A stretch of 63,206 nucleotides of DNA, the filler included, from Choristocarpus tenellus KU-1152 (taxonomy: Eukaryota > Protista > Phaeophyceae), in assembly GCA_964200185.2 (NCBI GenBank). It is 9 parts of 9 records of this genome, joined end to end, with 100 filler letters (N's around TTAATTAATTAA, not from the genome) between each part and the next. Parts side by side here need not be neighbours in the genome. Positions count along the whole stretch, not along the records: positions 51,958 to 56,322 come from CAXNAD020014897.1; 8 more parts are not named here. One strand, 5' to 3'. The translations under genes and the position numbers were made by a program. Under the pieces are notes generated by a model. That model made no database searches. It was not told the origin of the DNA and saw nothing but the letters and a program-made list of their open reading frames with translations. Positions 20,634 through 62,584 of this stretch are shown here, piece after piece (within the stretch, counting starts at the first letter, position 1; every line of letters starts with the position of its first letter).

Positions 20634-20893
20634 GAGACATAGTATCTTAGAGGGTAGGGCCGTGTCCATTTGAGGGCCAAAATCTAATGTTGCAATTTTG
20701 ATGTAATTTTGGTTATTGTGTTTGTTACGAAGTATCAATATCCTTGTTCCGAACAAACCTATTCATAACGTATACACATCTTACCTAGTCCGAAACATTT
20801 TGGAGTAGGAAAATGTCATAAAAATAACATGGGAAGATAAGCCACAAATGGACAAAAAGGGAAAAACTCTTACCCTCTAAGATACTTTTACCC
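20634..20893 (-). mobile_element. MITE family A
   Basis: Full-length match with slightly degenerate TIRs. Confidence 0.85.
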
Positions 20894-25000: not shown

Positions 25001-25168
25001 GGCGCCCAAAGCTAAATCAGCCTCCACCATGGCTGCCTCAATGTCCTCCACCTTTTCGTGGTACAATGTCTCCTTAGTGGCACAATCCCATAATTGATTG
25101 CTCACCTGGACAAATCCGAAGAACAGGCTTTGTTGAAGGCAAGTGCTCATGCTTGGAAACATTTTCAA
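22042..25168 (-). CDS. Partial gene of unknown function; long exon ~23282-25168 plus exon ~22042-22295
   Basis: 653-codon open frame with a CAG|GTGAGA donor at 23282 and an in-phase downstream acceptor at 22295. No domain recognised; the 5' boundary is uncertain. Confidence 0.72.
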
Positions 25169-25440
25169 GTGACGTCAGGTTCAATACCGTTCCATTCTTG
25201 GCATCAAAAGAAGTTGTAAACATTGAGTTCTCTGCATATTCTACTACTTGAAGCTGAAGAATGGAATGATACACAATGATGCACCAAATACTCATAATCT
25301 TGATGGACCGGTGTTCATTCGTCTGAAGGGAAGTGCGGTCGTATGTATGTCAGACAGAATGCCTTCGTTGAAATATCTTGAATTTAGACAGGTGCCAATT
25401 GCAACTGTCAATTCACCACGGGTGAACGCACATAGGATTT

Positions 25441-25678
25441 GAGTGAGAGTATCTTAGAGTGTACGGGCTTTGCCCTTGTTTGTCCGGGTTTTTCTATGGT
25501 GTTTCCCTACTCCAAGATGTTTCAGAGTAGGTAAAATGCGTCTGTTATGAAAGGTTTGTCCGGAACAAGGATATTGGCACTTCCTAACAAATAGGATAGC
25601 CAAAATTTCATCAAAATCACAACATTGAATTCTTCCCCCCAAACGGACGAGGCTCTACCCTCAAAGATTCTTTGACTC
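25441..25678 (+). mobile_element. MITE family A
   Basis: Both TIRs present; small internal deletion. Confidence 0.85.
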
Positions 25679-26142
25679 TATCCTATGTAACCTTTTTGAC
25701 TTGTGAGAATGGAATGAGATATAGTGTATTGTTACATGTAGGTGGCGATTAGACTCATGCGACAAATGGTAGAGGCGAAGTGTGCAGTTCAGCCTTAGTG
25801 GGGATATATATACATATACTTCCTATATATATACTGGCTATATTTTGGAGTAGACAAGGATGGATGGGCATGTATACTGGCACTGGGTATTGTATCAATT
25901 GAAAAGGAGAAGGGTTTCAGCTGAATTATCATAGAGTACCACGGGTATATAACTGTGATGGTTGAAACCCCCATATTCATGGTCCAAATCCAGGCAATCT
26001 CCATCAGGGTTAGAATACATAGATATAGAAGAAAAGATCCTGTGGATGAAGGAATGAATTTGGATTGGAGGATATAGGGAGGTAAACATGCAAAGCAAAG
26101 AAACAGGCACAGATACCTCTTCTTATGATATAAACCTTTTCT

Positions 26143-26376
26143 GAGTGAAAGTATCTTAGAGGGTACAATTTTGCCCTGTTTGTCCATTTATTGGCTTGGC
26201 TTCCCACGGGTTTTTAATAACATTTTACCTACTCCAAAATGTTTTGGAGTAGGTGAAATGTATCCGAAACATAGATATTGACACTTCCTAACAAACACCA
26301 TAGTCAAATTACATCAAAATCGCAACATAATTTCGGCCCCCAAATGGACGCGGCTCTACCCTCTGAGATTTGACTA
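26143..26376 (+). mobile_element. MITE family A, probable TSD TCT
   Basis: Both TIRs present; internal palindrome cctactccaaaatgttttggagtagg. Confidence 0.85.
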
Positions 26377-28349: not shown

Positions 28350-30594
28350 GTGTGCACGACTACCACTGTTCTCATTTGACCCACGTTTGGGAACTGGTCC
28401 TGTACTGGAGGAGAATCTTGAAGATCTCAATAGGCGGTGTAGCCATGCAGGGTACTGCTCAAAGCCGGCAATATTTGGGTACGTATTTGGTTGTGGCCTT
28501 GTCATGTTTGTAACCTTGCTTTGCTTGTGTTTGATGGAGACATGATGATGCGGCGAAGGGGGGTTGAATTACTGTCTCTCATTGCTGGTCTCGATTTGGT
28601 TGCTAGGGCATTGATTTGGTATTGAGACCTTTGGAGTGGGTTCTGTTTTGAGGGCGGGGGGGGGTGTTCTATTGTGTCAGAGTGAGGCACGACTTGGATT
28701 TGATTGGTTTAAATGTTTGGTGCTGGATGGATGGATGGATGGATGGATGGATGCAAAAAGGTAGAGATTGTAGAGATTGTGGATGTTGATCTGGTCATCA
28801 AGCTGCTATTTCTGGTGGTGGGTTTACAGATTTCTTGTTGAAGTTTGTCTCATACCTTTATCCCTATTTTAGGAGATTCTTATTTTTTTAATTTGAGGGA
28901 TCGCTATACCCCCCAAACATATCATCTACTCTGTGTTCAAGATTATAGGATAACAGGGCATGAATGAGGTCGTTTAGCAGCTCGTCTCACGCCTAAATTC
29001 TATTCCCATTGTGATTTACTTAGCATTTCATCTCATACCTACTTTCTATTCCCATTGTGATGTATTTAGCAGCTCATCTCACACCTACTCTAATCCCATT
29101 GTGATTTATTTAGCAGCTCATCTCATACCTACATCCTATTCCCATTGTGATGTATTTAGTAGCTCATCTGACACCTACATTCTAATCCCATTGTGATATA
29201 TTTAGCAGCTCATCTGACACTTACATTCTATTCCCATTGTGGTGTATTTAGCAGCTCATCTCACACCTACATTCTATTCCCATTGTGATTTATTTAGCAG
29301 CTCATCTCACACCTACTTCCTAATCCCATTGTGATTTATTTAGCAGCTCATCTCATACCTACATTCTATTCCCATTGTGATGTATTTAGCAGCTCATCTC
29401 ACACCTACTTCCTAATTCCGTTGTGATTTATCAACAATATCAAGTTGTTGACGTGGAAGCTGTCCCAGGAAGACTTGCTATGTAATAGAATTGTGGTGAG
29501 CCACTCCAGTCCTCCTGTGCACGACAGTGTATGTATGTACTAAGTGTGTAAATTGTGGTTTGATGGGAAGTTTGCTGTGATTCAAACCTTTTTTCAACCA
29601 ACAGTGCCTATAACTTGAACGTCCTTCATACACATGCATGTGACCCTTCCATCCTGGTCAGCTATGAGAGCCGAACTATGCGGTTCTGTGGCACCCACAA
29701 GGGCCATGGGGCACAAACCCTGAGACCAAGACAGTGGTTCTGTGTGGCGCATAAGGGGGATATTCTGGGCAATGAACGCCGTCAGTGTGAAGCCTTAGCA
29801 TGTACTACCAAACCCTGCTATGGGTTTGATGGAGAGGTAAGAAGGATCTTCTGCAGAGCATTGAGTGAAGTTAGCTTGAGCAACCGAAAGGGTGCTGCTC
29901 CTGAGGTTAAGAGCTCCTCTGGCTTTCTGGTCACATAAGTGTTGTAGCCTTTTGGGGTGTTTTGTGACTCAAAAACCCTAACCCTAACCCTAACCCTAAA
30001 CCTAAACCTAACCCACGTTCCGCAAGGGTTACTTTGACTCATTTCAAAGGATTGGTACTCATGACTTACCACTTGTGCATGGTTAGTTACTACTCTAGTA
30101 AGCTCATCATTGTTGCAGGGTATTATTGAACCAATTCAACATTTTCATTCTGTAACCGCTCCCCCTTACCCCCTCAAATCTTGATGCATGTCTTGATGCA
30201 TGTCTTGAACCAAAGTCACACTCCACAGAATGTGAAGTCTAAATAGAACTAGAAGCTCTATCCCTCTGCACTGTGAAGTAAATCCAAGAGCGTGCTGTTC
30301 ATAGAAGCATTACATATTCTTCTTGACCTCGTGCAGGCTCCAAGTCACTGCTCCGTTCACAAGATGGATGGGATGGTTCGCATGCCTCGACAATGCGAAT
30401 TCCCGAACTGCAAGAAGCGCCCCAGCTATGGGTATGAAGTTCAGGTAGGATAGGTTTGATGGTCCTAAACTTCTTGAGGAACATTTTTCCTGGGTTGAGT
30501 TGTTGACCCGCAGCATAGTCTCATTCGTCTATGGAAGGGAACAATATGCCTGTTAGATACACGTAGGCGTATGCCTCACTTGTGTGCACTTGTA

Positions 30595-35843: not shown

Positions 35844-36098
35844 GAGTGAAAGTATCTTAGAGGGTACGAGTTTTTTCCTGTTTCTCCATTTAAGCCTTGA
35901 CTTCCCACAGGTTTTTAATGACAAATTACCTACTCCAAAGTGGTTCGGAGTAGGAAAATGTATGTTAGGAAAAGGAGTGTCCGTAACAAGATATTGACAT
36001 CTCCTTACAAACATGATAGCCAAAATTACATCAAAATTGCAACTTTGGATTTTGGCCCCCAAATGGACGCGACTCTACCCTCTAATATACTTTGACCT
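35844..36098 (+). mobile_element. MITE family A
   Basis: Both TIRs present. Confidence 0.88.
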
Positions 36099-42480: not shown

Positions 42481-43700
42481 ACTTCATGTCCAAAATAGTG
42501 GATTTGCTTTGAGTCAAATTGAACCTTGGATGGCTTTAACATAACCCCCACAGTTTATAAGATTGACAGTACCATAGTGACTATGGTGTGCCCAAGATGG
42601 AGAGGTCAAAACTATCTTGTCTAAATATACCCAAAACCCAGAGCTAGGACCAATAGTAGAAAAGGTTTCAGACATGAAGCGTTCAAAGATCCATGGTGCA
42701 TTTTGTACTCGAAACAGTAACCTCTGAAACTCATATTTCCCATCTGGTGAGATGAATGCAGTTTTTGGTAGTTTGCATTCCTCAGTTATAGCTAGTTGCC
42801 AGCAGGCTGATTGGATGTCTAGACAAGATAAATATTTTGAAAACCCCCAAGGTAGATAAACACTCTTCCATAGATGGCGAAAGCCATGAGTTACGTAACA
42901 AATGTTTATTAATGGTACATCTGAAATTCACACAGATACAGGGGGATCCATCAGGTTTTGCGATAATGGTAACAGGGGATGCCCATGGCTAGATGAGGGT
43001 TTCAACGCCCTGTTCTTTTCCATATCAGTTACACATTGATGAGTGGTGTCATGTATTTTTGGTGCTGCGTGTTACAATGGTCTACTAACCGCTTTAGTGT
43101 CTGGTTGTAGTTGAAAGTCAACAGAAGTAGTGGTGCAACAACTTAATTCACTTTCTGATAATAAAAAGACTGATCTAAATTCAGTCATACTACCTGGCGA
43201 TTCCTCTTGTTCAGAACACGTCAGTTGTGTACTTGCAAATGCCTTCTTAGAAAAACCTTCAAATCGTCCCTAGCTTTTTTCAGTTCTTCGGGATTAGAGG
43301 ATTTAGCTGCGACTGGAATTGTGGCATCATCTGAAAGGGAATGCGTGGTTGACACTGAGGGGAGATATGAACAACTACAAAATTTGCTGGTAGCTTAATC
43401 CCTTCTTGAAATAATTGGGAATTTTGACTAAACATCCTCCATCTTTTCCCCAAACAGTGAGGGCTCGACTGACCACAATCTGTTGCCTGTGGAAATATAT
43501 GTCTTCCTCTTGCTGAAGGCCTGTCCCAGTATAATTGATAGGTTCCACCACTGCATCAGCAGCCGTTCCTCTGAGTGCCTGGGAACACACTGGGACAAAG
43601 GTTTCCGTGCCAGTGGGAAGGCACATCTTTTTTTCGACGTGCACTGGTGTAGTGAATTCAGGTGTGATCACTGAAATTGAAATATGAGGAAATGGATTAC
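42481..43700 (-). pseudogene. Ty3/Gypsy LTR-retrotransposon pol relic (reverse transcriptase)
   Basis: Manual translation of ~42481-42990: PWASPVTIIAKPDGSPCICVNFR..SKYLSCLDIQSACWQ..KTAFISPDGKYEFQRLLFRVQNAPWIFERFM..VYLDK..LKPSKVQFDSKQIHYFGHEV. The YxDD motif has decayed to YLDK. The upstream limit is approximate. Confidence 0.9.
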
Positions 43701-43765: not shown

Positions 43766-44022
43766 GAGTTAAAGCATCTTAGAGGGTACGAATTTTACCC
43801 TTTTTGTCCATTTGGGGCTTGGCTTCCCACAGGTTACTAATGACATTGTACCTACTCCAAAATGTTTTGGAGTAGGTATAATGTATACGTTATGAACCGA
43901 GTGTCCAGACAAGGATATTGACATCTCTTAACAAATATGATAGCCAAGATTACATCAAAATTGCAACAATGGATTTTGGTCTCCAAATAGACGCGGCTCT
44001 ACCCTCTAAGATACTTTGACTC
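43766..44022 (+). mobile_element. MITE family A, TSD TTT
   Basis: Both TIRs present; TTT on both sides. Confidence 0.9.
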
Positions 44023-44069: not shown

Positions 44070-44792
44070 AGGCAGTTGTCATGCCTATCTTGGGAGTAGA
44101 TCTTGATCATTTATTAGATACCAGCATCATGTCAGCTTTTGGGGTAGTTCTAGATGGGATATGGAGGAATTGTCAAGACAGTGATATATGCATTCCAGGG
44201 AACAGATAGGGGTCTACCACCCGTCCTTTAATAATTAGATCGCAGATGTCATGCCTAACTTAGGAGTAGATCATTTTATTGGATACCAGCATCATCTCAG
44301 CCTTTGGTGCAGTACTATTATGCATTCCAGTGAACAGATAGGGGTCTACCACCCGTCCTTTAAAATTTAGATCGCAGTTGTCATGCCTAACTTGGGAGTA
44401 GATCATTTTATTGGTTAACAGCATCATGTCAGCCTTTGTTGCAGTACTATTATGCATTCCAGTGAACAGATAGGGGTCTACCACCCGTCCTTTTACATTT
44501 AGATTGCAGTTGTCATGCCTAACTTGGGAGTAGATCATTTTATTGGATACCAGCATCATGTCAGCCTTTGGTGCAGTACTATTATGCATTCCAGTGAACA
44601 GATAGGGGTCTACCACCCGTCCTTTTACATTTAGATTGCAGTTGTCATGCCTAACTTGGGAGTAGATCATTTTATTGGATACCAGCATCATGCTAGCTTT
44701 TGGGGCAATACTAGATGGGATAAGGAGGAATTGTCAAGACAGTAATACATGCATTCCAGTGAACAGATAGAGGTCTATCACCCGTCCTTTTA
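44070..44792. repeat. 120-bp tandem repeat, ~5.5 units
   Basis: gcagttgtcatgcctaacttgggagtagatcattttattggataccagcatcatgtcagcc..gaacagatagggggtctaccacccgtcc is repeated and gives 40-aa repeats in ORF 44260-44691. Confidence 0.93.
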
Positions 44793-45074: not shown

Positions 45075-46950
45075 GAGGAGCAAGAGATAGACGCAACATC
45101 TTTGCAGCATGTGAAGGAACATGATCTTGGCAGGAGAGAAACGAGATCGCGGGAGAGGATCGGAGAAGTAGAAGCAGGAAGGGAAGCATATATTACGAGG
45201 TGTCAATGCAATGGAGAAGGAACTCAGGCAGGATGAAGGAATGGACAGAAGAATTTTGGTTTTGTGTGGGATGCAAAAGGTGGATTGCAGTGTATCATGA
45301 AGGAGGGTCTGGGATGGGGTAAGAGGAGATGAGGATTTGATGCAGTATGTGATGTATCATGAGTTTGGCGGGGGAGGTATGGGATAGTGGTCGGGAATGG
45401 ATAGGTAGGAGAAGGAAGGGGAAGGATAATTTGTACGAGGTGAGATTCGAATTGTTTTTGAAATTCTGCAGCTTGAGTCAAGGGATGGAGGAGTTGTGAT
45501 TGAGTGAGGAATAGGAAATTTGGATTGAAGTGTGCTGTAAATTAGGGTTTAGGATGGTGTTAGAGACGATGAGGATTGCTTGCAGCATGTGAAGGAGCAT
45601 GATTTCGACAGGAGAGAGTTGGGATAATATAGAGGGACTGGAGAGGTATAGGCAGGAAGGCAACGCATATTGTATGAGGTGGTAATGTTGAAACACTAGA
45701 CACTAGTAAACCCCTGAGCTACCGAGCAGATAGTCAGCCTGACTATCTGCTCGGTAGCTCAGGGGTTTACTAGTGTTTCAACAGGTAATGCAATGGAGAA
45801 GGAACTTGGGCAGCATGAGCGAACAGAGAGGGGAATTGTGGAGTTTGTGTGGGATGGATATGGATATGATGGATTTCAGTGTATCGTGAAGAAGAGTCTG
45901 TGGTGGGGGAAGAGATGATGAATATTGGAAGCAGCGTATGAAGGAACAAGAATTCAGCGGACGAGGTATGGGAGAGTGGGAGTGAATGGAGAGGTAGGTG
46001 CTGGAAGGCAAAGCATATTGTACAAGGTGAGAGTTGATTTGAAATTTCCCTATATATGCGAAGGGAGAGCAGAATTGTGATTTAGTGTGGGATGGAAGAT
46101 GTGTGTTGAATTGTGGCGTAAGGAGTGTCTGGGATGGTGGGAGTGACCATGCGGATTGGATGCAACATGAGAGGGAGTATAAGTTGGGGAGGAGAGAAAT
46201 GGGACCGTAGTAGGGTATTGGAGGAGTACAAGAGGCAAAGCGAATCATATTGTACGAGGTGACAATGCGATGGAGAAGGGATATAGGCAGTATGAGGAAA
46301 TGGAGGGAAGAATTGTGATATTGTGTAGAATGCAAATTAGTGGATTGTATCGTGTCATGAAGAAGGATATGGTATGGGGGAAGATGAGATGAGGATTAAG
46401 TGCAGCATATAAAGGAGCATAAATTTGGCAGGATGTGTATTGGACAGTGGGACAGAATGGAGAGGTTGGAGAAGCAAGGCGAAGCATTGTATGAGGTGGC
46501 AATGCAACGGAGAATGAACTTGGGCAGCATGAGCGAATGGACGGACGCATTTTGGCTTTGCGTGTGATGGAAAAGGTGGATTGCAGTGTATCGTGAAAGA
46601 GGGTCTAGGATAGGCGAAGAGGCAATGAGGACTGGATGCAGGATGTGAAGGATCATGGTTTTTGCAGGAGAGATATGGGACAGTGGGAGGGATGGAGAGG
46701 TAGGAGCAGGAAGGCAAAGTATATTTTATGCGGTATGAGTTGAGTTGATCTTAAAATTCTGAAGCATGGGCAAAGGGTGGGTGGAGTTGTGATTGAGTGA
46801 GGAATAGGAAATTTGGATTGAAGTGTAATGTTAAGGAAGGCTTGGGGTGGTGGAATATGTGACAAGGATTGGTTGCAGCTTATGAAGGAGCATGATTTTG
46901 ACAGGAGAGAACTGGGACCTTGGGAAGGGATCGGTGAGGTAGACGCAGCT
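45075..46950. repeat. Diverged ~238-bp purine-rich tandem repeat, ~8 units
   Basis: A gcagcatgtgaaggagcatgattt-like anchor occurs at ~45104, 45342, 45582, 45930, 46162, 46402, 46638 and 46875. Confidence 0.85.
45686..45783. mobile_element. 98-bp fold-back (perfect hairpin) element, TGT...ACA ends, 5-bp TSD GGTAA
   Basis: 38-bp perfect arms at 45700-45737 and 45739-45776 with a 1-nt loop; GGTAA at 45681-45685 and 45784-45788. Confidence 0.88.
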
Positions 46951-49150
46951 GGCATGGATGAGGATGTGTACGCAAACTTCAGAGAGAGGTTTCAGATGGA
47001 GGCAATGTCCGGACGGATACCCTGTCTGTTGAAATTCGTGAAATGGAGGCCCTTCTACATCCCTAAGGCTATACAAAGGTGTGTCGGGAAACGTAGCAGT
47101 TTAACAGTCCAGGTCATACAAGATAGGAGCACTTAAAGGGTCAAGACATTCCATAGTATCCCCAACCCAAGATTCGTATATTGGTTTACCCCTCGCCCAC
47201 GACAAAACATGCACAACTTCTCTTCCTTCTCTCTTGCACATCGTACAGGACATATATTTGCGTTCACCACATGGCCCGCGTCCTTTTGGTCCAGTGCCTG
47301 AGGGAGAACCGGAACAAAATACACTCGAGGATGATGGTTGGTGATTAAGGGCAACATACTTGCACCTCTCGCTGCGACTTCTTTAAGTGTGGCAAAGGAT
47401 GCAGCTCCAAAGAAGTCAAGGCTGCACTGTAGAATTCTTTCGATATGATGGACTTCCTCCTGCATGTTATGGTACAAAGCTACACCAACCTCCAAAATAC
47501 TTTCAGAACAACAACATATACGACAGATGCCATCCTCTCCCAGCACCAAGATGCAAACCACATAGCTGTTCTCAATTCACGTTTACATGCTGATATATAC
47601 GTGTGCAAATTGCGCCTGGTGTTCATACATTCAATGCAATCTCATATGCAGGTTGATACGTAAAGCAAACGCCACCACTCTTCAAAATCAAATCGCCCAA
47701 GGTGCGAGAGGATCATCCTGGAGCCCCTAAGCGAATAGTCCACAGGTTGTTCAGAAGGTGGTTAGAAGTTCTTGTGTCGATGGTACATGCGAGATGTGCA
47801 ACTGGATAGAGCATTCCATCCGGAAGTGCCCTTGTATGATCAACTCCCACAGGACCAAGGTTATGTGGAATCAGTTTGTCAACATGTACACCCCTGTTGT
47901 GGAGGCGGACCTGGAAGGAAAGACCCTCCACGAGATCAAGGTGTGACGTGTGGCCATGTACAGGAAACCCTATAGCGAGATGTCATATGATTAATCCCCG
48001 CTCTTGTGGTGTCTTAGATACAAGGATCGACATTTGAAATAAAAAGAACCGATACTTCATATGTGATGTCGCCCATTGATACACCATAAACTGTCTTTAC
48101 GCGCCGAAGGCATTGTCCTCTCGTGTTGATCTCATCGTCCCCAACAGCATGATGATGGACGGAATGATCGAGAGGAATAAGGTAAAGTATACCAAGTTCA
48201 GGGCCAACTATCTCCTGACCGACAGCTTCATCCTCGCCACCCGCATGGTGGGAGAGTCTAACTCCAACTCGAGGAGGAGAAGAATCGAGGAGAATGACGA
48301 CGAAGACGACTCAGGGTCTACGGACAAGGAAGGATAACAGGAGGCGAAAGGTGACTCTGCTGCCAGGACCAGAGGAGTGGTCACCACTGCATGCGTAATT
48401 ATGTCTTCGTCCAACAGGACAGAACCCTCCCCCACGAACTCGATATGCACACAGTTGTACCACAGCAACAAGTTAATAGTTGCAATGGGTCACTTATTTC
48501 AAAAATAAACACCAGAATTATTGCCCCCTGTACGATCAGGTGGTATTCCTACGGACAGAGGGATTCCCCATACTCGTTCGTGTCCTCTTCACCAACTTCG
48601 TCCAGAACGTTTTCCTTCATCACAACACCACCATCTGGCAGGCGCAGCAGTACAAAAACTGCAAATCCCGCCTCCCAAAAGGCCACGCTGCCATGTCCAC
48701 GGACTTCAGTTCCCAAACTTCCATACAACCACCAAGACCTGAAACAAAAACTAGTTTTCAATCTAATTCTTGACAGCACTCCTGCCCATAGTTTAGTGGT
48801 CGAGGGACCCGAGGGAAGGGAGAAATCTGGGAAGGGGAAGGATCCGGGCTCACAGCATTTCGATGTGTAGCGAAGAGTTCGTACAGAACGCTGCGGAGAT
48901 GTTTATCTTGAGCCACCTAATAACTTTGGACCGGGAATAAGGACAGAACCTGGATGTCCCCCACACCTGGTCTTCACTAGTCCACGGGCCAACAGCAACT
49001 CTTGATGTTGAGGTACTCCAAGATCTCATGCTACTGCACCAACTGTTCGACCGGCAATGTGGTGACCTGCAATTTTGGAGGGCACCCATGTGCCTTTGTT
49101 GAAGGAGATAGACCTCGGATTTTCCCCAGAGGACCAGGTGGACGACATGT

Positions 49151-49404
49151 GAGCCAAAATATCTTGGAGGGTAGAGCCGCGTCTATTTGAGGACCAAAAT
49201 CCAATGTTGCAATTTTGATGTAATTTTGCCTATCATATCTGTTAGGAAGTGTCCATATCCTTGTTCTAGTCACAACTTTTCATAACGCATATATTTTACC
49301 TACTCCCAAAACATTTGGAGTAGGAAAATGTAAAAAAAAAACTTACGGGAAGCCAAGCCCCAAACAAACAGGGCAAAACTCGTACCCTCTCAGATACTTC
49401 ACTC
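49151..49404 (-). mobile_element. MITE family A, TSD TGT
   Basis: Filled site cgacaTGT[MITE]TGTacctgag versus empty paralogous site cgataTGTatctgag (minus strand ~17265-17280). Confidence 0.92.
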
Positions 49405-50086
49405 TGTACCTGAGGATTCGCCTCTCCAGGAAGAAGCGACAGCTCGCGGTGGGGAATGTATGCATTGTGCGAAAGGAGCCATTGGAGTACAATGGGTTGG
49501 AGTTCCTGCCATTCACTGTTACATTAGAAGAAGACCATTAAATGGAACGCCAGGTATCATTCCAGCTATGGGAGGATGTTCAGTTCCTTTGGTGAGGTGG
49601 TCTTTGTCAGGGAAGACTTCGAGGTGTTGAGTGCCACCTTTGTTGACAGAGTGCAAACAGTTCGCCTGATGTGTGCAGACAGGGTGAGCTACGCTAGGTT
49701 TTTTCTGAACAGTAATTACTATGTAATACTGAACCAAATGTCTATTGTTTTGCAATACCATATTCGGGAAGATTCAGAGAATTAAAAAATATATATTCTA
49801 AACAAAATTATTTTGTGTAGATTTCTTTCCCGTCAGGAGTACATGACATTTTATGCTTGTTTCGGTTCTTATCATTGGCGTCAAACAACACCTGTCCACC
49901 ATAACACCACGGTGTTACATAAACATCTTCACGTTCGCCCCCATTACCCTTCGTTAATAACACCAAAAAATTGTTGTGGCACTGCAGGACGCACAAGCGG
50001 GTCCCCATGCCGTCCCCCTTCAGGCTATCCTCATCCCTGACTTCACACACCTTCGTCACAAAAGCCTGGATGAGACATTCATCATC

Positions 50087-50206
50087 CTACCTGGACAATA
50101 CCAGAGGTTCACTTCGGAATCCAATCAGCAATCCCTTGGTGGGATCCTGCCTGGACAATACCAGAGGTTCACTTCGGAATCCAATCAGCAATCCCTTAGT
50201 GGGATG
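50087..50206. repeat. 60-bp in-frame tandem duplication inside the transposase relic
   Basis: cctggacaataccagaggttcacttcggaatccaatcagcaatccctt occurs twice. Confidence 0.9.
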
Positions 50207-51957
50207 CCTGTTCACTTCTCAAGGCAATTACAGACTCGGAGAAACATTTGATGCCAAGTTTGGATGAGGCGCCAGTTTAATCCTATGCAGGAGTAGGATG
50301 CTACTGTGCGGGAGGAGGTCCATGACGTTGATGATGTAGACAATTCTGGGGCATAAATTTACTCTGTGTGTCACCCAAGGAGATGATGGCAAGAACTCAA
50401 GAATTCCTTGCTGCCTGGGCTGAGGTCGTTCATCACAGAGGACGAGATCGAGGAGGGGGTCAAACAACTACGGGAGAAGGAGAAGGGGGACCGTGATGAG
50501 GCTGCAGCCGACTGTGTCATCCAATGCAGATGGATCGCCAGGTAAAGCGTAGAGAGGAGGGGAAGGATGCCGAGGGATACATCCCCCTAGAACCGTCACT
50601 GAGGGTTGTGCCGGATTTGGACGAGGGAGGAACACTTCATGCAAGAGCCAAGGACAGGGGACTGTACCTTTGATGGGACAATCAGTGGATGCGAGAGACC
50701 GTGACCGGATACCAGCGCAAACACAGAGTGAGAATGGAAGAGGAGCGAGTCATCTATCCCGATGAGGTGAAATGGGAGAATGGCAAGGTGTGAGATATCC
50801 AGCTTGTTGTAGAACGGTAAAGAACAGAGCAAGACGCCCCTACATGGGCATGGTTCTGGATGAGCCCCACATTGTGTAATGCAGAAGAGAGACTGGGCAT
50901 CGGACACACTATAATCTGTATTCATACTCGTGTGCCACCCTATACTTCATTGATCCATGTCATGGAGATCTTGTGCTAGGGAGGTCAGACTTTGTTGGTG
51001 CGGGAGTGCACTTTTAAATTTATTATAGTCGGTTTTAGATATTTTTCCATCATTTACGTAGACGTGAACTACTACACCTTCGTTTATTGTCCTCATTACT
51101 ATTGATGTTTTTTATTTTATGTGTTTATCAATTATTTCCTGTATGACTATTGGTATCCGTCATAGCATATTGGAAATCATAGAACTTCAACATCGGAATT
51201 ATAATTTGCGTGTGTGTATATTATATAGAGTACCTCTTCTTACATCATAATCAAATATACATCACAATGAAATGTAATGAATTTATTATGTCCTGTTGTT
51301 GTGTGGTCTTTTATATGTAGCGCTTCTTCGATGCTATACCGAAACACTCGACAAAGATTGTGCATTCATATCTCCGTGATAAACTACTTTAGGATAATTG
51401 ATGTGACATTTTACACTTGACGAGGGACATAATCTAATTCCTCAATACAAACTCGAATCTACCTGCAAGATATTAATCCAAGGGGCATGTCCTTGTGAAT
51501 ACCACGCACAAGAATTCTCCTTCACGCCCTTAGAATGCTTCAACACAAACGTCATTGATAGACGAATAGTCCAACCACTACAGCTGATATACTCTATTGT
51601 GGTTAATAACACGGTCCAAACCTCAATGGGAAAAATCTACAGAAAATAACCATTAATTGACACCTCTTTAAAACAACACCAACCCTCAACCCCAAAACGA
51701 TATATGTGTTAAGGTATCCCCAAAATCATCAAAAAGAGGATAAAGGTGATAAACCCGGAGAGATTGCTTGGTGTCTGTAGAGTGATTGATTAAATTTGGG
51801 TGGGGCATGCAGCACTCCATAACAACGGATATATTTTCTTTTTATATGAGAAATTTCNNNNNNNNNNNNNNNNNNNNNNNNNNNNNNNNNNNNNNNNNNN
51901 NTTAATTAATTAANNNNNNNNNNNNNNNNNNNNNNNNNNNNNNNNNNNNNNNNNNNN

Positions 51958-54577
51958 ACCCGCGCTCCTTGCATGAGCCTTACCCTTGCCCTTGCCCCTG
52001 CCCCAGCCCCTGCCCCGACCCGCCACTTCGTACCCCACCGATCCAGACCCTTCACTGCCCTCCTGTGCCATGGGGCAATTGATACATAATCGATCCTTGT
52101 GCCTCTCGTCGTCTATAATCTCCGCGTAGGCACATTCGCCCATATGCATGATGGAGCACTTTGGGCATGAATACCTGTCGCGCGTGTCATTGAGTCAGAG
52201 CGTTAAACAGATAGGATAGTATTTTTCCAGATCGTTAATTGGGCGCAACAACACATTGCGGGGATCCACGGTTACGAAGGACCACGAAATTGGCCGCGGA
52301 AAACAGCACGAAGTAGTACAGGTGAGATACAACAGTCGGTGATGTACATGCATTAACACACAATCGGACAGTGACAAATAAAGAGACGTGGGGGTAGTGA
52401 CCACAGCGCCGCACATAGAGGGACCCCGCAACATACCATGGATTCAATGGCGTGCGCCGCTGAAAAGATACAACGTATCTATCCGTTCGGGGGATTGGAT
52501 GGAAACCAATTGTTGAATCTATTATTTACACTCCGCCCTCGTGTGCACCGTTACAACTACATTACTCACCGAGACGTAGGTGGAGGATTGCATTCAGTAC
52601 AGCGAACGTCCGCGTTCCACCCTCCATAGTCGTTTTGTTCTTCTTCCGCACCAGGAACACTGCCGACAGAACCCCCTTCGCCCGTATCCTCCCTGTCTGG
52701 CAGCCCGTTCCCTCCCTCGTCTTCGTCCCCTCCTTTGCGTTCGTCCCCTTCCTCGTCTCCATCCCCTCCTTGGTGTTCGCGCCCTCCCTCGCCTTCTTTC
52801 TCGCAGCCATCTGATGCCGATCCGTTGTTGCTCTCGACTTCTGCGCCACTGCCATCACAGCCCCGCCCGCTGTGAACCTGGTGGAGGTTGACCTAATTGA
52901 GTTCATCCTGGTATTTACCATCCCAGGTGGTGAGGTAAGCGCGTAGAGTCGAATCCTTCTCGAGAATCTAGTAGTGGAGACGGGGGAGGACGTCGTTGAG
53001 GAGAGGAGGGGATGATGGTGACGTCAAGAATGTGATGGTGTAATGGAAGTACGATAGCATGGAGGAGCGAACAGAGCAAACGATATGGTTGACGTGGCGA
53101 ACGTGTTTAATGGAAGCGGCTTGCTGGGTGAAATAGTTTGAAATAAGTCCATGTCGAGGACGCCAATCCATATGTAGGTTTTTTCAGTGATGCGTATTGG
53201 AGGCAGAAGCGAGGTGGAGATTGACCAAGATCGTTGTCTACAGTTGAAGGAAACGATTTGCTATAATATTAGCAACGAAAGACTAGAACTGATAAAACAG
53301 CAAAGTTTGTAGTATGGAAGGTAACTCTGTCGCTCATGATGATGACGAAGATCCACCACCAATCCTACCAAGCATCAACTATTTTTTTCGGTACAAGCCA
53401 TTTCAGCTGTAATTACGAACACAGGAGGCACACTCACGGCTCTTATCCGTTGCAGAGGTTTCATTCCGACTATCGTGAATATGTTTGCCCTCAGTTGGCG
53501 GACGGGCCCCGCCTGTTGGTCGCCAGATGAAACCTTCTGCAGAAGTTGGGCCACCTCCCTCTTCCTATCCTCGTAGTGGGGCTTGAACCAGAGGTCGTGC
53601 ATACTGCACTTCTCGTATGCGAGCCTGTCCATTTCCCTGGCAGCCCGTGCATCATTCACGTAACGTCCGGAATTCAGGGCGGTTTTGCAACAATCAATAA
53701 GTGCGGTGCAGAAAAAGACGCTGATGGTGTATTTTACAATTCAGGGGCGCATGGCGACGTATGGGTGCGCAGGAGATACGGAAAAGGCAAAAAAAGATAA
53801 CCGCTGCAACTGCACTATTTACCAACCTTTGGAGCTCTGGAGTCCGCTTATCCTTGGGCACAATCTGCCTGGTGCGCGAGATAAGCATCTCCGACATGTG
53901 CGCGTCCGATTCGATGTCCTTGTGGTCCCTCGTCGTAGGAGCCTTCCCGTAGAACGACTTGTACCTGCTAAAATAGAATTGCCACGAAGGATGTCAAGGA
54001 GAACGATGCACAGGTTATGAAGAGGAGAGGGTCGCCACTGCAGGAAATATTCATCACTCGATTGTCGTACTTCCTAAAAGACAAGAGCACACATACACAG
54101 GAAACACACACTGTAGAATTACCAGAATACTACGAAGGGATTTTCGTTCGACACAACAATGGCTGACTACATTCTTTATCGTAGGAGACACTTATTTCAC
54201 GCTCCTGTGCAATGTGCTGCGACCTGCATAAACTGTGCTTACTGCTGTCTACACGATAAAACACAGTGGCGTTTTGACTTGCCTAGCGAGCAGGTGGATG
54301 CATAGCCCCTGCTTGAGAGAAGTGAAGCCGGCAAACTCCTCCCTCATCAGATAGTTTAGTGTGACTGTGTTCGGTCAATCTGTGGTGACGAGGTCTCACA
54401 CACTTCCTTCAGTACCTCGAAGGATCTGGTTGAAGGGACTTTACGCCTTGCTGCCAGTTTCGTAGAGTTGTTTTCGCCAGGATAGTAATGCCCACCTTCG
54501 TGATGGGCAGAAAATGGAAAATATTATGCACCCAGCCAGCAAGGATGAGGCATCGTTATTACCACGCCAACACGATA

Positions 54578-54608
<31 letters not shown>

Positions 54609-55906
54609 GCAACACCGCCGAGAAAAAAAAAAAGGAGGGTTNNNNNNNNNNTTATCCCGCGACCACGCTATGTGTGTGTGTGTGTGGGGGGGGGGGTTAA
54701 GGCAACACCGTCGATAAAACAATCAAGGACGCTTTTTATTGCACGTCTGTGGTTAACCACACATACATTCTACATGGTCACCCGAAAATCAATAATTTGG
54801 TTGACAGGATATCTAAACGCGGGATAACTATCTCAACTTAGGTTGAATAGCAGGACGCAGAGATATCTCGCAACAGCTGTAACCCAACTAGAGGAGGAGT
54901 AGAGCGCAACCATCCCACCAATATCGACAACTCTCTCACATTTTGGTACATTCTGCTGATCTCTACTAGTGATACTTGTTTTTTCTTCGTCTGTCGTTTG
55001 ATAGCTTCTTGGAGCTCGTGCTGAAAATATATCTTGTCGTATAACGTGCGCTCAACCACACTCTCGGTCGTGTCATTGAATGCTATAAGCATGGCGGTGC
55101 AGTGAGTGAACGGGACAAGGGTTAGGTGGGGAGCGGTCGCAGGACACACGCAGCCTGCGGCACCGAGAAACATGTTGCTGCGGACAGGAATACCACGAGG
55201 GATAAAAAAGATGAGCAACGAAAAGATCCACAATGGGCTGACTGACAATGAACATAGCAAGGGAAACTCGGCAACAACTTCATATATCAGAATAGTCATC
55301 AGGCGATCATGGAACAACGTCATGATTGTCAACTTACTTTGTTGCTTACTTGATGGTAATAGTCATCAGGCGAACATGGATCAACGAGAACACTCAACTT
55401 ACATTATTGCTTAGTTGATTAGAACGGTCAGGCGATTATGGAACAACGAAAACACTCCATCACCCACCATTGGCAATTAGCCTCTCTTCTGCTTGGTTGA
55501 AGTCCATGTAGATCCGCATGGTGAAAGCGCGCTCGGGATCAAACTCTCTCTTCAGCACCATTACTTTATGGTTTCCGTCCAATACACGCCCTTCAATGGC
55601 AAGTGCAGTTTCGGCGTTGAGCTGATCCACATTACCTAAACAGTCTCGCTGGATGACAACACTTGGAGCAAACTGCTCCAACCAGCCTTTCTCCTTTATA
55701 GACTTCCTCATGGGCAAAAGGCCACGCTCGCTTGAAGGACGCACCATCTCTGTGCATGTGACATTTGTGAGTTTCATCTTGTATGATCCGAGGTAGTGAT
55801 GCTCTAGGAGCTGGGACATGCCCTTCAGAGTTAAGTTCCACGTTCTCGATCCGTGGGCAGCGCCATCGGCAGGCGGGTGGGTTGTTGTTGAGGGAATGTT
55901 GGACAT
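51958..55906 (-). pseudogene. 7-exon gene, lightly degenerate: ParB/Srx-like N-terminal domain, HTH-like region, acidic linker, C4HC3 PHD-like finger; 3' end lost in the gap
   Basis: Exons 55468-55906, 54940-55082, 54283-54495, ~53823-53964, 53438-~53690, 52570-52967, <51958-52174, with matching phases at the 5 checkable junctions. Motifs: VRP..SIKEKGW..P.V..VLDGNHK and CTEC..CPKCSIMHMGEC..CINC. Two apparent frameshifts and one TAG. Confidence 0.7.
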
Positions 55907-57497
55907 GGCAAAGATTGGGAGGGTGTGATGGGGATGGATAAGTAAGAGGTCTGTGTGGTATCTACAGAAGGGAATGAATTGAAATGAGGACTGAGAGATG
56001 GGTTAGGCTGTTTTTTTTCTATTGGTCTGTTGATCCTCAAAACTCAGATTTCACCATTTTTAAGAGAATCGTGTTATAAAAAATACGAATGTCAAACAGC
56101 ATACGATTTCATATTGAACTGGGACAGAGAGTAACTGTATTTTTGTGACCTTTTCGTTTCGTAGCGTTTGAAACGTTTTAGATCAATGAAGGGTGTGGTT
56201 TGTATCTGTATTTCTTGATGTAAAGATTAGAATATCATTCTAATTTGGAAAAACCCTAACGCACGTGTAAAGTGGATCTTTATGTATTCTAGATCCGCGC
56301 TGATCGGTATTACCTGAAGAACNNNNNNNNNNNNNNNNNNNNNNNNNNNNNNNNNNNNNNNNNNNNTTAATTAATTAANNNNNNNNNNNNNNNNNNNNNN
56401 NNNNNNNNNNNNNNNNNNNNNNCCCCCTTTCCCTTTTTTTTGTCCCCCCCCCCCCCCCCCCCCCCAGGTACTTTGGGTCCCAACGACATACTACATAGTA
56501 TAAATGCCCCAAGCAGCTACCAATAGTTGTCCCGTTAACCAAAAACCGCCTTCTGACAGACCCGCAAGTATGGGCCATGAGTGGGAGGATACAGACCAAA
56601 GACTTGTGCAGGCAGAAATTTCCGGAAGGGTACTCTGCAACGTTTATACAGTATGTTGATATATACATATGCTAGCAGCATATACGGAGTATATTCTACG
56701 TGTTCATTCGTTGTTCTTACTGAACCTGGGGGTGTGTGTTGAGTCAGTTATAGTGCTGTTTTTTCGTGGGACTACGATTTGTTTTTTGAACAAGTGCCAA
56801 CATCCCAACAATGCCATGCATGAGACGAAGTGTGTTGCTGCCACAACCCGATACAGAGAACGCATCACCCACTGTAGCACTTGCAAGCTCAAGAGTTGGC
56901 ACTCTTCCCATTGGACCCCAAATACGCGTCTACCACTCAGGTCGATGCTGGGTGTGCACTTCCGCGCCGACAATGTTGATGGCATGCTCTTCGGTGAGCT
57001 CATCGCCATCCGCATCCTGCAAGAGGTTAGTGATACGACTTGAGCGTCCTCTTTCTTAATGCCCACAGGCCACAGACTATTGTCTCAGGCACTGTTCAAA
57101 TGTAACGTTAACACATCATTCCAAGCAAGAGGACTTCCATACGATTAAATCTCTTCACAGGCAATTGTGCTGCCATTCCATGATCGTATTACTACAATAG
57201 TAGAGTAGTTCCTCCTTGGAAATCTCCCTTTTACCCTTTGCGTGCGTATGCGCGATAGAGAGCAGAAAATCTCGCAGGAAGAGCTTCTCTCCGTCAAAGT
57301 CCTTGTTGGTGGTATTGAATACCACTACACTGCACCAGTCAACAACAGCCGACGTATCCCGTTTTCTTCCCACTTTTTGTGTGCGTGTTTGTCATGCAGG
57401 AATTGTCTGGCCTTCCAGAGGGGGACCTGGCCTTCTGGGAGTTCGGCCTCTTCAATGGTGACACAATCAAGGTGCGATGGAGAAGGTTTTAATTTCA

Positions 57498-57755
57498 GAG
57501 TCAAAGCATTTAAGAGGGTAGGGGTTTTGCCCAGTTTGTTCGCTTAAGGCTTGACTCCCCATTTTTTTTTTGTGCCCCTTTTCGGTTTTCTGCGTGAGCA
57601 CAGTTACCTACAATGTATACTTCTATAAAAGGTGTGTCCGGAGCAAGGACATTGACATTTGCTAACAAACACGATAGCCTAAATGAATGAAAATCGCAAC
57701 ATTGGAATATGACCCCAAACGGAAGCGGCCCTTGCCCTCTAAAATGCTTTGGGTC
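57498..57755 (+). mobile_element. MITE family A, variant subfamily
   Basis: gagtcaaagcatttaagagggta ... tgccctctaaaatgctttgggtc; similar to the copy at 6149. Confidence 0.82.
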
Positions 57756-59796
57756 TCCAGATTGTCTTGGCGTGTTGTGTGCACAGGCTGGGCAGATTAG
57801 TTGCTACAGTACGTATATCATTGCCGCCAAGCATGCGCTTTGGCCTACAAACAGCTGCTGCGGTGAGCGTCTTCAGAGCAGATCAATACGTCATCCCTTG
57901 CACAACGCCCACTGCCCACCGACAAAAAGAATAGAAATGAACTTGTGTTGATAACGGGCACTGTGTGGCTCGGGGGCTCTGTGCTCCAGGGGGTGACAAA
58001 CTCATTCTGAAATCAAGGTTTGCTCGACTCTTTTCTCTGGAGCCCCAGAAGGTTTCTTTTGAACCATCCCCTTTTGCTACTCCTCTCGTTCCAGATTGAG
58101 CGCGACGGCAACACCATTGCTGGGATTTTCTTTCCTGGTCCATACAAACCGAACCTCCTTCCCGTGGAAGAGTGAGTTGTACAAGTCTATAGATAGATGA
58201 AGACTCTCACGGATGGGGTGGGTTGCGATTGACCAGTAATGTGTACCGCCGTGGGTATGGTGTTTTCTCTGAAGCAGAACCGAGAACTGTCCTTTTCTTC
58301 CAGCAGTGTGTTACTTCCTGCAGTTGCACATTTCTAACCAAGCACCATCTCCTGGCAGTGACTTCTCGCATTTTTATGGCAACCGCATCTAAGAGTGCAG
58401 ACCTGCTGGGGAGAAACATAAGCTTACTTTACTTTTGTGGTACATCTCCTGAACTGAATTACTTCGAAGTACTTGTAGCCTCTCCAGCGGCTGAATGAGA
58501 CCGTGTTGCTGTCCAACGTCCTGATCTCGCAGATGCAAAGGCAAGGAATGCAAGGATCGGGAGGTGGAGAGAACAAACAAGCTGTACAACAGGGCATACT
58601 AACAGGTGAAACCTTCGAGCTGAGCCAGTCCTCAACCTTGCCAATATTATCGTTCCCTGACAATCTCTTCCAACAAAATTATTTAGTACTCCGGAGTGCA
58701 ACATAAGCGTTTTTGATACTTTTCGTATCACTACTTCTAGTACATGTGCTAGAACGTGGAATGTGCGGAATAGATCAAGTTAAGCACAGGTTGACCCCCT
58801 CAAAGGGGTCATGACCTGCATGAACAAATGCTGTCATCCAGTTCCCACGAATTTCCTCGGGGTGGGATGTTGAGCTGAAATGGTATAATTGGTGCGCCAA
58901 TATTTGTATACACTCCAGTATATCGTATGTATATATATTACGATTTTTTGTACTTTGTAGTATGTGCTGTAGCACTACTGTAGTGTATAGGCGTATGTAC
59001 ACGCTCGGTTTTGTGTTTTGTGTACGGTACTCTGATCTCTATCCAGCACTTTGAAATTGTACTATTCTGATTAATAAGTAGTATCTTATCACTGCCGTGG
59101 CGTGCAAGACCTCCAGGTTTAACACTACTCGTGGTTGTCTGAGTGAGAGCTTTTGTTATTTTATTTGAGTATATCGTTGAGCTCCTGTGCTCTGTTGTTG
59201 TTTTCTTCCTTCTGATGCCAGCTTCCGCGTGCCTAGAGAATAATTCACCTGCTACACAGTATGCACGCAGGCACAACGGCCCACGGACAAACATGTACTG
59301 TGCACAAGACTGCACCTCAACACAATGCCTATGTCACACGGTGTGTTATTCTTATCTTGTTGCACCTTACAGCAACAACCGCCTAAAATGAATGTGTTTT
59401 GACTTCTAAGGCCCAAAGTATCTGGGGGGGGGGGGTCTACACNNNNNNNNNNNNNNNNNNNNNNNNNNNNNNNNNNNNNNNNNNNNTTAATTAATTAANN
59501 NNNNNNNNNNNNNNNNNNNNNNNNNNNNNNNNNNNNNNNNNNCCCCACAACCCCCCCCAGATACTTTGACCCATCAATGCACCATAGCAATTGGACTCTG
59601 GTGTCCTGTTTGCATATCCCTAGAATTGGAGAAGAGTGAACCTCATGTAGTGGTCGCTAGGAGGTCTATCCTGTTGGTGATTGTACTCAGACCTTTTCTC
59701 ATTCTCCCCTCAGGGGCCTGGAGGCAATAAAATAAAGTATTTGACTTACCTGCTCTAGCATCAACTTGAACCCTAACCCCAATCTTGTCCCTTCAG

Positions 59797-62234: not shown

Positions 62235-62368
62235 AGATTCATCTCCTGGTTATGCCATATCTAGATTCATCTCCTGGTTATGCTGTATCTAGATTCATCT
62301 CCTGGTTATGCTGTATCTAGATTCATCTCCTGGTTATACCATATCTAGATTCATCTCCTGGTTAAGCC
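62235..62368. repeat. 28-bp minisatellite, ~5 units
   Basis: agattcatctcctggttatgcyrtatct is repeated. Confidence 0.92.
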
Positions 62369-62584
62369 ATGTGTAGGACGTCCGTACGGGTTGATTTAAA
62401 GAATCAACAGTGGCATCTTCTGTGGATGTATATATATATTTTTTTGGAGATCGGCCCGTGATATATATATATCTATATTTTTTTTTAGAGGTCGCTGAGG
62501 TCTATGTTACTGGTTCTCAGTGTATTCAGCCCCTTTCCAATGCGAAAAGTTGGGTCGTACCCGATTTGCGGCCTCTAAAAATAA

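What the first reader, a model, noticed from the sequence alone, without database searches (positions are those of the whole stretch)
51958..55906. Spliceosomal-intron gene joining a ParB/Srx-like domain, an HTH-like region and a PHD-like finger
Seen: seven exons splice in phase. Exon 1 has the ParB-like pattern (VRP..gl..mrkSIkekGW..aP.V...vlDGNHK). The exon 2/3 junction gives SLVEISRMYQNVGITILAKTTLRNW, which is HTH-like and sits where ParB proteins carry their HTH. Exons 6/7 give C-x2-C..C-x2-C-x3-H-x3-C..C-x2-C followed by GRGRG/GKGK. Known: ParB/Srx folds are nucleotide-binding, mostly prokaryotic or phage domains and are often fused to DNA methyltransferases; C4HC3 PHD fingers read histones. 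Inference: a prokaryote-type DNA clamp or modification module fitted with a eukaryotic chromatin reader, possibly cargo of a large transposon or endogenous virus, since it is decaying like its TE neighbours. The ORF track misses this architecture, and the C-terminus is lost in the gap.
Basis: partly seen in the sequence, partly recalled or inferred. Interest (0 to 1): 0.78.

Follow-up and report, generated by a model that had tools for sequence, protein, structure and literature searches.

The report
Seaweed transposon's ParB zinc-finger cargo gene
This is a broken copy of a spliced, many-copy brown-seaweed gene with a predicted bacterial ParB-type fold and a zinc finger; it is likely the helper gene of a giant jumping element and would bind and possibly methylate that element's own DNA, a design already reported in a brown alga in 2025, though without mention of the finger.

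Summary
Seven exons (55906 to <51958, minus strand) splice in phase. This copy is dead: two one-base deletions in exon 3, a stop in exon 6, and Lys for the family's Arg in DGNHR. Exon 1 is modelled at pLDDT 92 and matches only ParB/Srx folds among the top solved structures. It has 88 relatives, and every named one is from a brown alga. An Ectocarpus model joins the ParB domain to the finger, and an RNA-like run skips the predicted introns. Thousands of variant contigs cover exons and introns alike, so this is a repeat family, likely transposon cargo. That kind is known: Ectocarpus Sola1-1_Ec32 carries a 1104-aa ParB-like plus N4C/N6A methyltransferase gene (PMC12477816), and red-algal PAG3 is similar. 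I could not test orthology to that gene. No transposase, terminal repeat or methyltransferase lies on this 4.4-kb contig. What looks new is a conserved C4HC3 finger with non-canonical PHD spacing, which an in-frame variant lacks, and many deep subfamilies sharing intron 1. Histone reading, the HTH, CTP use and methylation are inferred. New variant of a known kind; interest 0.38.

The parts
55468..55906 (-). Exon 1: ATG and the whole ParB/Srx-fold domain (R..G..S I..GW..P.V...DGNH[R]); this copy has Lys for the conserved Arg
55291..55448 (.). Three 29-nt direct repeats in intron 1, spaced 67 and 62 nt; unit number differs between copies; not palindromic
   Evidence: (joints 55308-55438, 55320-55429)
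54940..55082 (-). Exon 2: helical segment after the ParB domain, first half of the HTH-like region
54283..54495 (-). Exon 3: second half of the HTH-like region; two one-base deletions; GC donor
53827..53964 (-). Exon 4: conserved helical region of no known family
   Evidence: intron 4 skipped exactly (190 nt) in X3
53438..53636 (-). Exon 5: conserved helical region
   Evidence: intron 5 skipped (470 nt) in X3
52570..52967 (-). Exon 6: end of the helical region with a premature TAG at 52895, acidic Gly/Glu linker (18-nt tandem units 52706-52795), first Cys pair of the finger
51958..52174 (-). Exon 7 (cut by the gap): remaining six ligands of the C4HC3 finger, then Gly-Arg/Gly-Lys repeats
   Evidence: (50% over 44 aa to Ectocarpus P0002, E 2.7e-9); intron 6 skipped (395 nt) in X3
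52048..52673 (-). 626 nt holding the whole finger, bounded by an in-frame 6-nt direct repeat; a variant in run X3 lacks it
   Evidence: (joint 52009-52674 with 26 letters between, one contig)
55907..56322 (.). Upstream DNA, as repetitive as the gene; the element likely continues past the contig end
   Evidence: depth bins 55902-56320

Best explanation
This is a decayed copy of a spliced, many-copy brown-algal gene with a predicted ParB/Srx fold and a C4HC3 zinc finger, likely the accessory gene of a giant cut-and-paste transposon of the Sola1-1_Ec32 type, whose intact product would load on the element's own DNA and likely carry a C-terminal N4C/N6A methyltransferase-fold domain lost here in the gap. 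Shown: exon structure, lesions, repeat-level abundance of exons plus introns, spliced forms, conservation across brown algae. Predicted: ParB fold. Inferred: the domain binds a nucleotide (CTP in true ParB, recalled) through the conserved Arg, Gly and DGNHR positions, the exon 2/3 helices recognise short sites in the element, the finger adds a chromatin or DNA contact that some copies drop, and the missing 3' part marks or shields the element to favour its transcription or transposition.
For: Fold: pLDDT 92.3 on 81 rows; the 31 best listed PDB rows are all ParB/Noc/KorB/PadC/Srx/SbnI/SerK-type chains, best E 7.3e-4; VIA-align best Z 9.2 PadC, the top 8 of 13 rows all ParB/Srx-type; 10 of 81 members hit PHROG 1033 ParB-like, best 1.4e-6. 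Repeat: 4649 and 3873 variant contigs on 4.4 kb in X1 and X2; median summed depth 20,008 and 6,388 against 220 and 83 on a flanking control, where exact unique pieces have depth 14-24 and 7-8; exon/intron ratio only 1.9 and 1.6. Family: 88 clusters at 50% identity, median pairwise identity 29%; Ectocarpus, Undaria and Sphacelaria each hold members of distant subfamilies; many annotated models are truncated or frame-shifted. Splicing: X3 is 18-fold exon-enriched and skips introns 1, 2, 4, 5, 6. Precedent in the same algal class: Sola1-1_Ec32, 21.5 kb, 1104-aa ParB-like + N4C/N6A methyltransferase gene (PMC12477816). About 580 codons are present here, which leaves room for a methyltransferase in an 1100-aa protein (inference).
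Against: No transposase, terminal inverted repeat or target-site duplication is on the contig, and the Sola1-1 terminal 5-mers are not in 55901-56322. No methyltransferase domain was found in any relative: the C-terminal part of P0002 gave no Pfam, PHROG, PADLOC, PDB or phage hit and only Atlas scores under 0.8; two searches among long proteins found nothing. No palindrome excess in intron 1 or upstream, and only a weak one in intron 2 (14 of 200 shuffles reach it). Pfam ParBc is not hit by any of 81 members at E 0.05. Summed depth is not a copy number, all four runs are of one study, X1/X2 may be the window's own sample, and X3 is not on record as RNA.
Confidence: 0.65

Rival explanations
1. 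It is transposon cargo, but on another giant element (KDZ, EnSpm/Plavaka or a non-autonomous carrier) and/or with another or no C-terminal enzyme; the ParB clamp plus finger would then act as a structural or anti-silencing DNA binder rather than a methylase.
For: ParB-like accessory genes move between superfamilies in red algae and there carry a 2OG oxygenase instead (10.1101/2025.02.11.637652). Several Ectocarpus KDZ and EnSpm families carry extra spliced genes. At least three Ectocarpus-type or Undaria subfamilies differ deeply, while only one Sola-1 family is listed for Ec32. No methyltransferase was detected.
Against: The only described brown-algal ParB-like transposon gene is the Sola1 methyltransferase fusion. 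The end of P0002 has a strand-helix-strand pattern that by eye resembles the start of a Rossmann methyltransferase (recalled, unsupported by any search).
Confidence: 0.25
2. It is an expanded host gene family (domesticated chromatin or nucleotide-sensing proteins), and the window holds a pseudogene of it.
For: Intron 1 sits at one position across the family (66 of 77 rows show the read-through signature, 7 more are spliced models), the finger is conserved between distant orders, and spliced forms exist.
Against: Introns and upstream DNA are about as abundant as exons in DNA runs, about 80-90 times the flanking control; many relatives are broken; transposon genes with introns are common in Ectocarpus.
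Confidence: 0.06
3. It is a gene of an endogenous giant virus that gained introns.
For: ParB/Srx-fold proteins are common in phages and occur in giant viruses (Faunusvirus, Orpheovirus rows); brown algae hold many integrated viral regions.
Against: Three scans of viral contigs gave no true relative (the one locus was a spurious 27-residue match). Six spliceosomal introns and repeat-level abundance do not fit. The two genomes without viral regions in the brown-algal survey are the Discosporangiales, the order of the nearest named relative (order assignment recalled). No viral marker gene was recognised among 31 window ORFs scanned.
Confidence: 0.04

Closest known systems
Accessory gene of Sola1-1_Ec32, Ectocarpus (PMC12477816; abstract, passages, section 5 part 1, supplement table rows seen; figures and FASTA supplements not seen)
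   Same: Brown alga, transcribed transposon-borne gene, N-terminal ParB-like domain, high copy family, compatible length.
   Different: No zinc finger or PHD is mentioned in the main text or in the five readable supplements; it is called 'Ectocarpus specific', whereas this family spans at least four genera. Methyltransferase, transposase and termini are not seen here. Sequence homology untested.
PAG3 of Bostrychia Plavaka (EnSpm) elements (10.1101/2025.02.11.637652; passages and section 8 seen)
   Same: N-terminal ParB-like domain found only by profile methods (best hit 7BNR, also a top hit here); accessory gene of giant DNA transposons; proposed self-binding.
   Different: Red algae; C-terminal 2OG oxygenase; tandem arrays of inverted repeats beside the gene, not found here.
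Chlorophyte-type Dam N6A methyltransferases (PMC4738411; passages seen)
   Same: Algal proteins of phage ParB-terminase origin; one family has an N-terminal ParB-type HTH, another has PWWP and ZfCW/PHD-X readers.
   Different: ParB-type HTH and PHD-X are in separate families there; described for chlorophytes and chytrids; no methyltransferase shown here.
Bacterial ParB/Spo0J, Noc, KorB, PadC CTP-binding domains and sulfiredoxin
   Same: Fold (TM 0.5-0.6, Z 8-9) and a conserved Arg, Gly and DGxHR in the nucleotide-binding positions (positions recalled).
   Different: 10-18% identity, DGNHR rather than the GERR box (recalled), spliceosomal introns, an inserted segment, no ParA partner or parS site seen.

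Membership tests
ParB/Sulfiredoxin fold superfamily | ParB/Srx alpha-beta fold | tested here: met
   Model pLDDT 92.3; top Foldseek and VIA-align rows all ParB/Srx-type
ParB/Sulfiredoxin fold superfamily | Conserved nucleotide-binding motif (G-x-H/R-R type; recalled) | tested here: met
   DGNHR in 61 and DGAHR in 8 of 81 rows; this copy has Lys for Arg
Bacterial ParB CTPase clamp | Pfam ParBc/ParB_N match at curated cut-off | tested here: not met
   0 of 81 members at E 0.05; only PHROG ParB-like hits, 10 of 81
Bacterial ParB CTPase clamp | HTH DNA-binding domain after the CTPase domain | tested here: inconclusive
   Region conserved in distant members; one PHROG transcriptional-regulator hit at E 0.043 for P0001 169-225; no usable model
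Bacterial ParB CTPase clamp | CTP binding and hydrolysis, sliding from parS | not testable with these tools
   needs biochemistry
Sola1-1_Ec32-type ParB-methyltransferase accessory genes | Gene lies in a multi-copy element (introns and flanks repeated) | tested here: met
Sola1-1_Ec32-type ParB-methyltransferase accessory genes | N-terminal ParB-like domain in a transcribed, spliced gene | tested here: met
   intron-skipping joints in X3, a run not on record as RNA
Sola1-1_Ec32-type ParB-methyltransferase accessory genes | C-terminal N4C/N6A methyltransferase domain | tested here: inconclusive
   3' end lies in the gap; no full-length relative found; P0002 tail without hits
Sola1-1_Ec32-type ParB-methyltransferase accessory genes | Sola transposase on the opposite strand, terminal inverted repeats, 4-bp target-site duplication | not testable with these tools
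   4.4-kb contig, no whole genome held; both contig ends lie inside the repeat
Sola1-1_Ec32-type ParB-methyltransferase accessory genes | Sequence homology to the 1104-aa Ectocarpus protein | not testable with these tools
   FASTA supplements cannot be read
PHD finger | C4HC3 ligand order | tested here: met
   exon-7 ligands conserved in Ectocarpus P0002, first Cys pair in Undaria P0003
PHD finger | Canonical spacing C-x4/5-H-x2-C and Trp two residues before the seventh ligand (recalled) | tested here: not met
   C-x3-H-x3-C, Arg at the Trp position, in the window and in P0002
PHD finger | Profile match to a PHD model | tested here: inconclusive
   Only the two halves could be searched, no hit
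Endogenous Nucleocytoviricota element | Viral relatives or hallmark genes nearby | tested here: not met

The most novel reading that the evidence does not exclude
Brown algae carry an old, deeply diversified family of transposon-borne ParB-fold proteins, one lineage of which has a plug-in histone-reading finger beside a bacterial-type amino-methyltransferase: a CTP-loaded clamp that reads host chromatin and writes 4mC or 6mA on its own element, shielding it from silencing in a lineage said to lack DNA methyltransferases. The element's high CpG content (0.89 against 0.39-0.79 in the other eight contigs of the window) would be a trace of that shielding.
Probability: 0.15. Interest if true: 0.75.

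Novelty: new variant of a known kind. Interest (0 to 1): 0.38.

Why it matters
Most brown algae are reported to lack DNA methyltransferases and PRC2 (PMC13076208, passages), so a transposon that brings its own DNA-binding and marking protein would be the only writer of such marks there. A chromatin-reader-like finger in that protein would tie a bacterial-type DNA clamp to host histone state, and the finger-less variant offers a natural control. The basic design is already in print for Ectocarpus and red algae, which limits surprise.

Tried and rejected
No whole genome is held, so copy number, flanks and the 3' end could not be read directly. Pfam gave nothing significant for exon 1, exon 2, the finger halves or the relatives. 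PDB sequence searches gave only chance hits such as phycocyanin and low-complexity Gly-Lys matches. AlphaFold on P0002 with four rows failed (pLDDT 34). Two searches for long relatives (843-2405 and 990-2825 aa) found none, weak evidence by the tool's own note. Collection scans: metagenome contigs (L001 is the antisense of an integrase-like ORF), viral contigs (L002 spurious), prokaryote genomes, phage genomes: no true relative. A homodimer prediction gave no verdict (0.28 against a mark of 0.32). No RNA holder is listed among the runs. A parS-like palindrome array was sought because earlier AI notes report one in plant elements: none in intron 1; a shared 8-mer occurs 4 times in introns 1-2 but 7 matches in the window are chance level. 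The flanking contig 46960-51857 is not part of this element by depth. Literature searches pairing ParB with PHD, transposon and brown algae found no description of the finger; most subscription papers, including Iyer et al. 2011, were not searchable. The tree is a quick tree of 77 of 81 rows on 121 columns, used only to show that subfamilies are deep.
Full report
Observation. The finding lies on a 4365-base contig (51958-56322) between two 100-base spacer gaps; the window is a string of nine such contigs and no whole genome is held. On the minus strand seven exons run from an ATG at 55906 to the gap: 55906-55468, 55082-54940, 54495-54283, 53964-53827, 53636-53438, 52967-52570, 52174-51958. All six acceptors are AG, five donors GT and one GC, and phases are 1,0,2,2,0,2 when two missing bases in exon 3 are allowed for. 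Three annotated proteins map on these blocks in order. The copy is dead: two frameshifts in exon 3, TAG at 52895 and Lys for the Arg found in 74 of 81 aligned rows. Other copies have one more base at both frameshift places and another base at the stop.

Source and relatives. Exon 1 finds three longer proteins: Choristocarpus tenellus (75%), Ectocarpus sp. CCAP 1310/34 (56%) and Undaria pinnatifida (55%). The exhaustive search gave 88 clusters at E up to 0.001. I aligned 77 of them, leaving out 11 short or frame-shifted pieces, with the window and the three first hits. Of 30 proteins looked up (29 distinct clusters), 9 clusters carry names and all are brown algae: Choristocarpus, Sphacelaria, Ectocarpus, Undaria. 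The window is therefore likely a brown alga near Choristocarpus (inference). Median pairwise identity in the domain is 29%; 66 of 77 rows with a residue at the last exon-1 codon continue with the signature of reading into a phase-1 intron, and 7 of the other 11 are spliced gene models, so intron 1 is shared family-wide. A quick tree shows many deep subfamilies, with Ectocarpus, Undaria (P0070, labelled through its 90% cluster) and Sphacelaria each present in two distant ones. A distant Undaria model aligns over exons 1-3 (probability 99.7).

ParB fold. Pfam does not detect it. The model from 81 rows has mean pLDDT 92.3. Its best PDB matches are ParB, Noc, PadC, KorB, sulfiredoxin, SbnI and SerK, best E 7.3e-4, TM 0.5-0.6. 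VIA-align over 48,161 chains gives Z 9.2 (rmsd 2.5, 91 aligned) for PadC and ParB/Srx-type chains in the top 8 of 13 rows. Viral models give phage ParB-like proteins, some named as methylases. Ten of 81 members hit a ParB-like PHROG, and the Atlas lists clusters with ParB_N (11% of members), DUF3723 and DUF6551 at 0.92-0.94. DGNHR is in 61 of 81 rows. The fold is well supported; which nucleotide it binds is not known.

HTH and finger. The exon 2/3 region is conserved in distant members, and P0001 169-225 has a weak hit to a phage transcriptional regulator (E 0.043): suggestive only. The finger has C4HC3 order with spacing C-x2-C-x9-C-x2-C-x3-H-x3-C-x15-C-x2-C. Its exon-7 part is 50% identical to Ectocarpus P0002, a model that also holds the ParB domain, and its first Cys pair is in Undaria P0003. 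The His is one residue earlier than in canonical PHD fingers and the usual Trp is missing (recalled consensus), and the halves hit nothing in Pfam or PDB. It is best called a PHD-like zinc finger of unknown ligand. It seems optional: one X3 contig joins 52674 to about 52047, an in-frame loss of 626 nt at a 6-nt direct repeat that removes the whole finger, and the distant Ectocarpus model P0097 goes from the acidic linker to the Gly-Lys tract without it (may be a modelling omission).

Repeat family and splicing. Four runs of one study hold the stretch. X1 and X2 lay 4649 and 3873 variant contigs on it, over exons, introns and upstream DNA alike. Median summed depth is 20,008 and 6,388, against 220 and 83 on the flanking stretch 46960-51857. 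That control includes repeats of its own; its exact unique pieces have depth 14-24 and 7-8, which also shows that X1 and X2 are the same organism and possibly the window's own sample. Summed depth is not a copy number, but hundreds of copies are likely. Exon/intron depth ratios are 1.9 and 1.6 in X1 and X2 and 18 in X3. X3 has joints over introns 4, 5 and 6 at the exact lengths (190, 470, 395) and approximately over introns 1 and 2; intron 3 is not among the 15 rows shown, 19 being hidden. X3 is not on record as RNA, and its contigs are mostly 80-95% alike, so they come from other copies.

What is missing. No transposase, terminal repeat or methyltransferase is on the contig. Both ends lie inside the repeat, and the next contig is not part of it by depth. 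Searches for long relatives failed. The tail of P0002 looks by eye like the start of a Rossmann methyltransferase without its catalytic motif, but no search supports this. Intron 1 has three 29-nt direct repeats 62-67 nt apart, not palindromic; intron 2 has one perfect 14-mer palindrome and a weak excess (14 of 200 shuffles). CpG observed/expected is 0.89 on this contig against 0.39-0.79 on the other eight, while 10 of 19 listed places where this copy has T/A and others C/G are CpG sites (background about 0.28; 40 best-supported of over 900 places). This fits a young or protected family whose dead copy is now decaying by CpG deamination, but one short contig cannot decide.

Mechanism. Most likely (0.65) this is the accessory gene of a giant DNA transposon of the Sola1-1_Ec32 type. 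The intact protein would load on short sites in its own element through the helical region, use the ParB domain as a nucleotide-gated clamp, contact chromatin or DNA through the finger, and mark or shield the element through a C-terminal amino-methyltransferase fold. Only the gene structure, abundance, splicing and conservation are shown; the fold is predicted; the rest is inferred from the published analogues. Rivals: another carrier or another enzyme domain (0.25), host family (0.06), endogenous virus (0.04).

Known systems. Dinatale et al. 2025 (PMC12477816; abstract, passages, section 5 part 1, supplement table rows) describe a 1104-aa ParB-like plus N4C/N6A methyltransferase gene opposite the transposase in the 21.5-kb Sola1-1_Ec32, and propose that it marks its own element. 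'PHD' does not occur in the main text or five readable supplements; the FASTA supplements, which would settle homology, could not be read. The Bostrychia preprint (10.1101/2025.02.11.637652; passages and section 8) describes PAG3, ParB-like plus 2OG oxygenase, on Plavaka and other elements. PMC4738411 (passages) lists chlorophyte Dam families with a ParB-type HTH or with PWWP and PHD-X. PMC13076208 (passages) reports loss of DNA methyltransferases in brown algae; 10.1101/2024.02.19.579948 (passages) reports DNMT1 in Discosporangium and no viral regions in two Discosporangiales genomes. Earlier AI notes of this scan report the same design in plants and animals, one with a Tudor reader; these are unchecked leads, and no note matched this sequence.

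Verdict. Real, correctly read, and of a kind already in print for brown algae. The optional PHD-like finger and the breadth of the family were not found described in my searches. New variant of a known kind; interest 0.38.

Noticed in passing
window 4672-4930, 6156-6409, 12151-12390, 14091-14357, 18326-18583, 18583-18862, 20634-20891, 25441-25685, 26139-26375, 35844-36096, 43766-44022, 49151-49405, 57497-57756: A ~260-bp family with inverted ends, at least 13 copies at 68-85% identity; summed depth 3-7 x 10^5 in X1 with unrelated flanks. Likely a very abundant MITE.
   Followed up: partly
window 51716-51857: Start of another very high-depth repeat (2.9 x 10^5 in X1) at the contig end next to the gap; depth is unlike that of the ParB gene.
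   Followed up: partly
window 42517-42927 (-): Degenerate reverse transcriptase fragment (PF00078, E 2.1e-6), Gypsy-like by eye.
   Followed up: partly
window 23207-25174 (-): 655-codon open frame with no Pfam hit and low CpG (0.34); likely a large exon of a host gene.
   Followed up: partly
window 2438-13757 (-): Multi-exon host gene with repeated beta-rich exons (V.V.FS..V pattern), likely a large cell-surface protein.
   Followed up: no
window 44187-44713, 45103-46948, 28973-29431, 62235-62370: Tandem arrays with units of 132, about 240, 46 and 28 nt; 45700-45776 is a perfect 38-bp hairpin.
   Followed up: no
window 54559-54734: Two 93-nt-spaced copies with GT and poly-G runs on either side of a 10-N gap in intron 2; depth drops here, so it may be copy-specific or a collapsed array.
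   Followed up: partly
whole window: CpG is depleted overall (0.56 observed/expected, 0.39-0.43 in three contigs), which fits past or present cytosine methylation in this alga, unlike Ectocarpus.
   Followed up: partly
window 47100-48350 (+) and 49900-50860: Degenerate low-copy repeat remnants with Cys-rich fragments; 50143-50661 has a 72% inverted copy at 15978-16494; no Pfam hit.
   Followed up: partly
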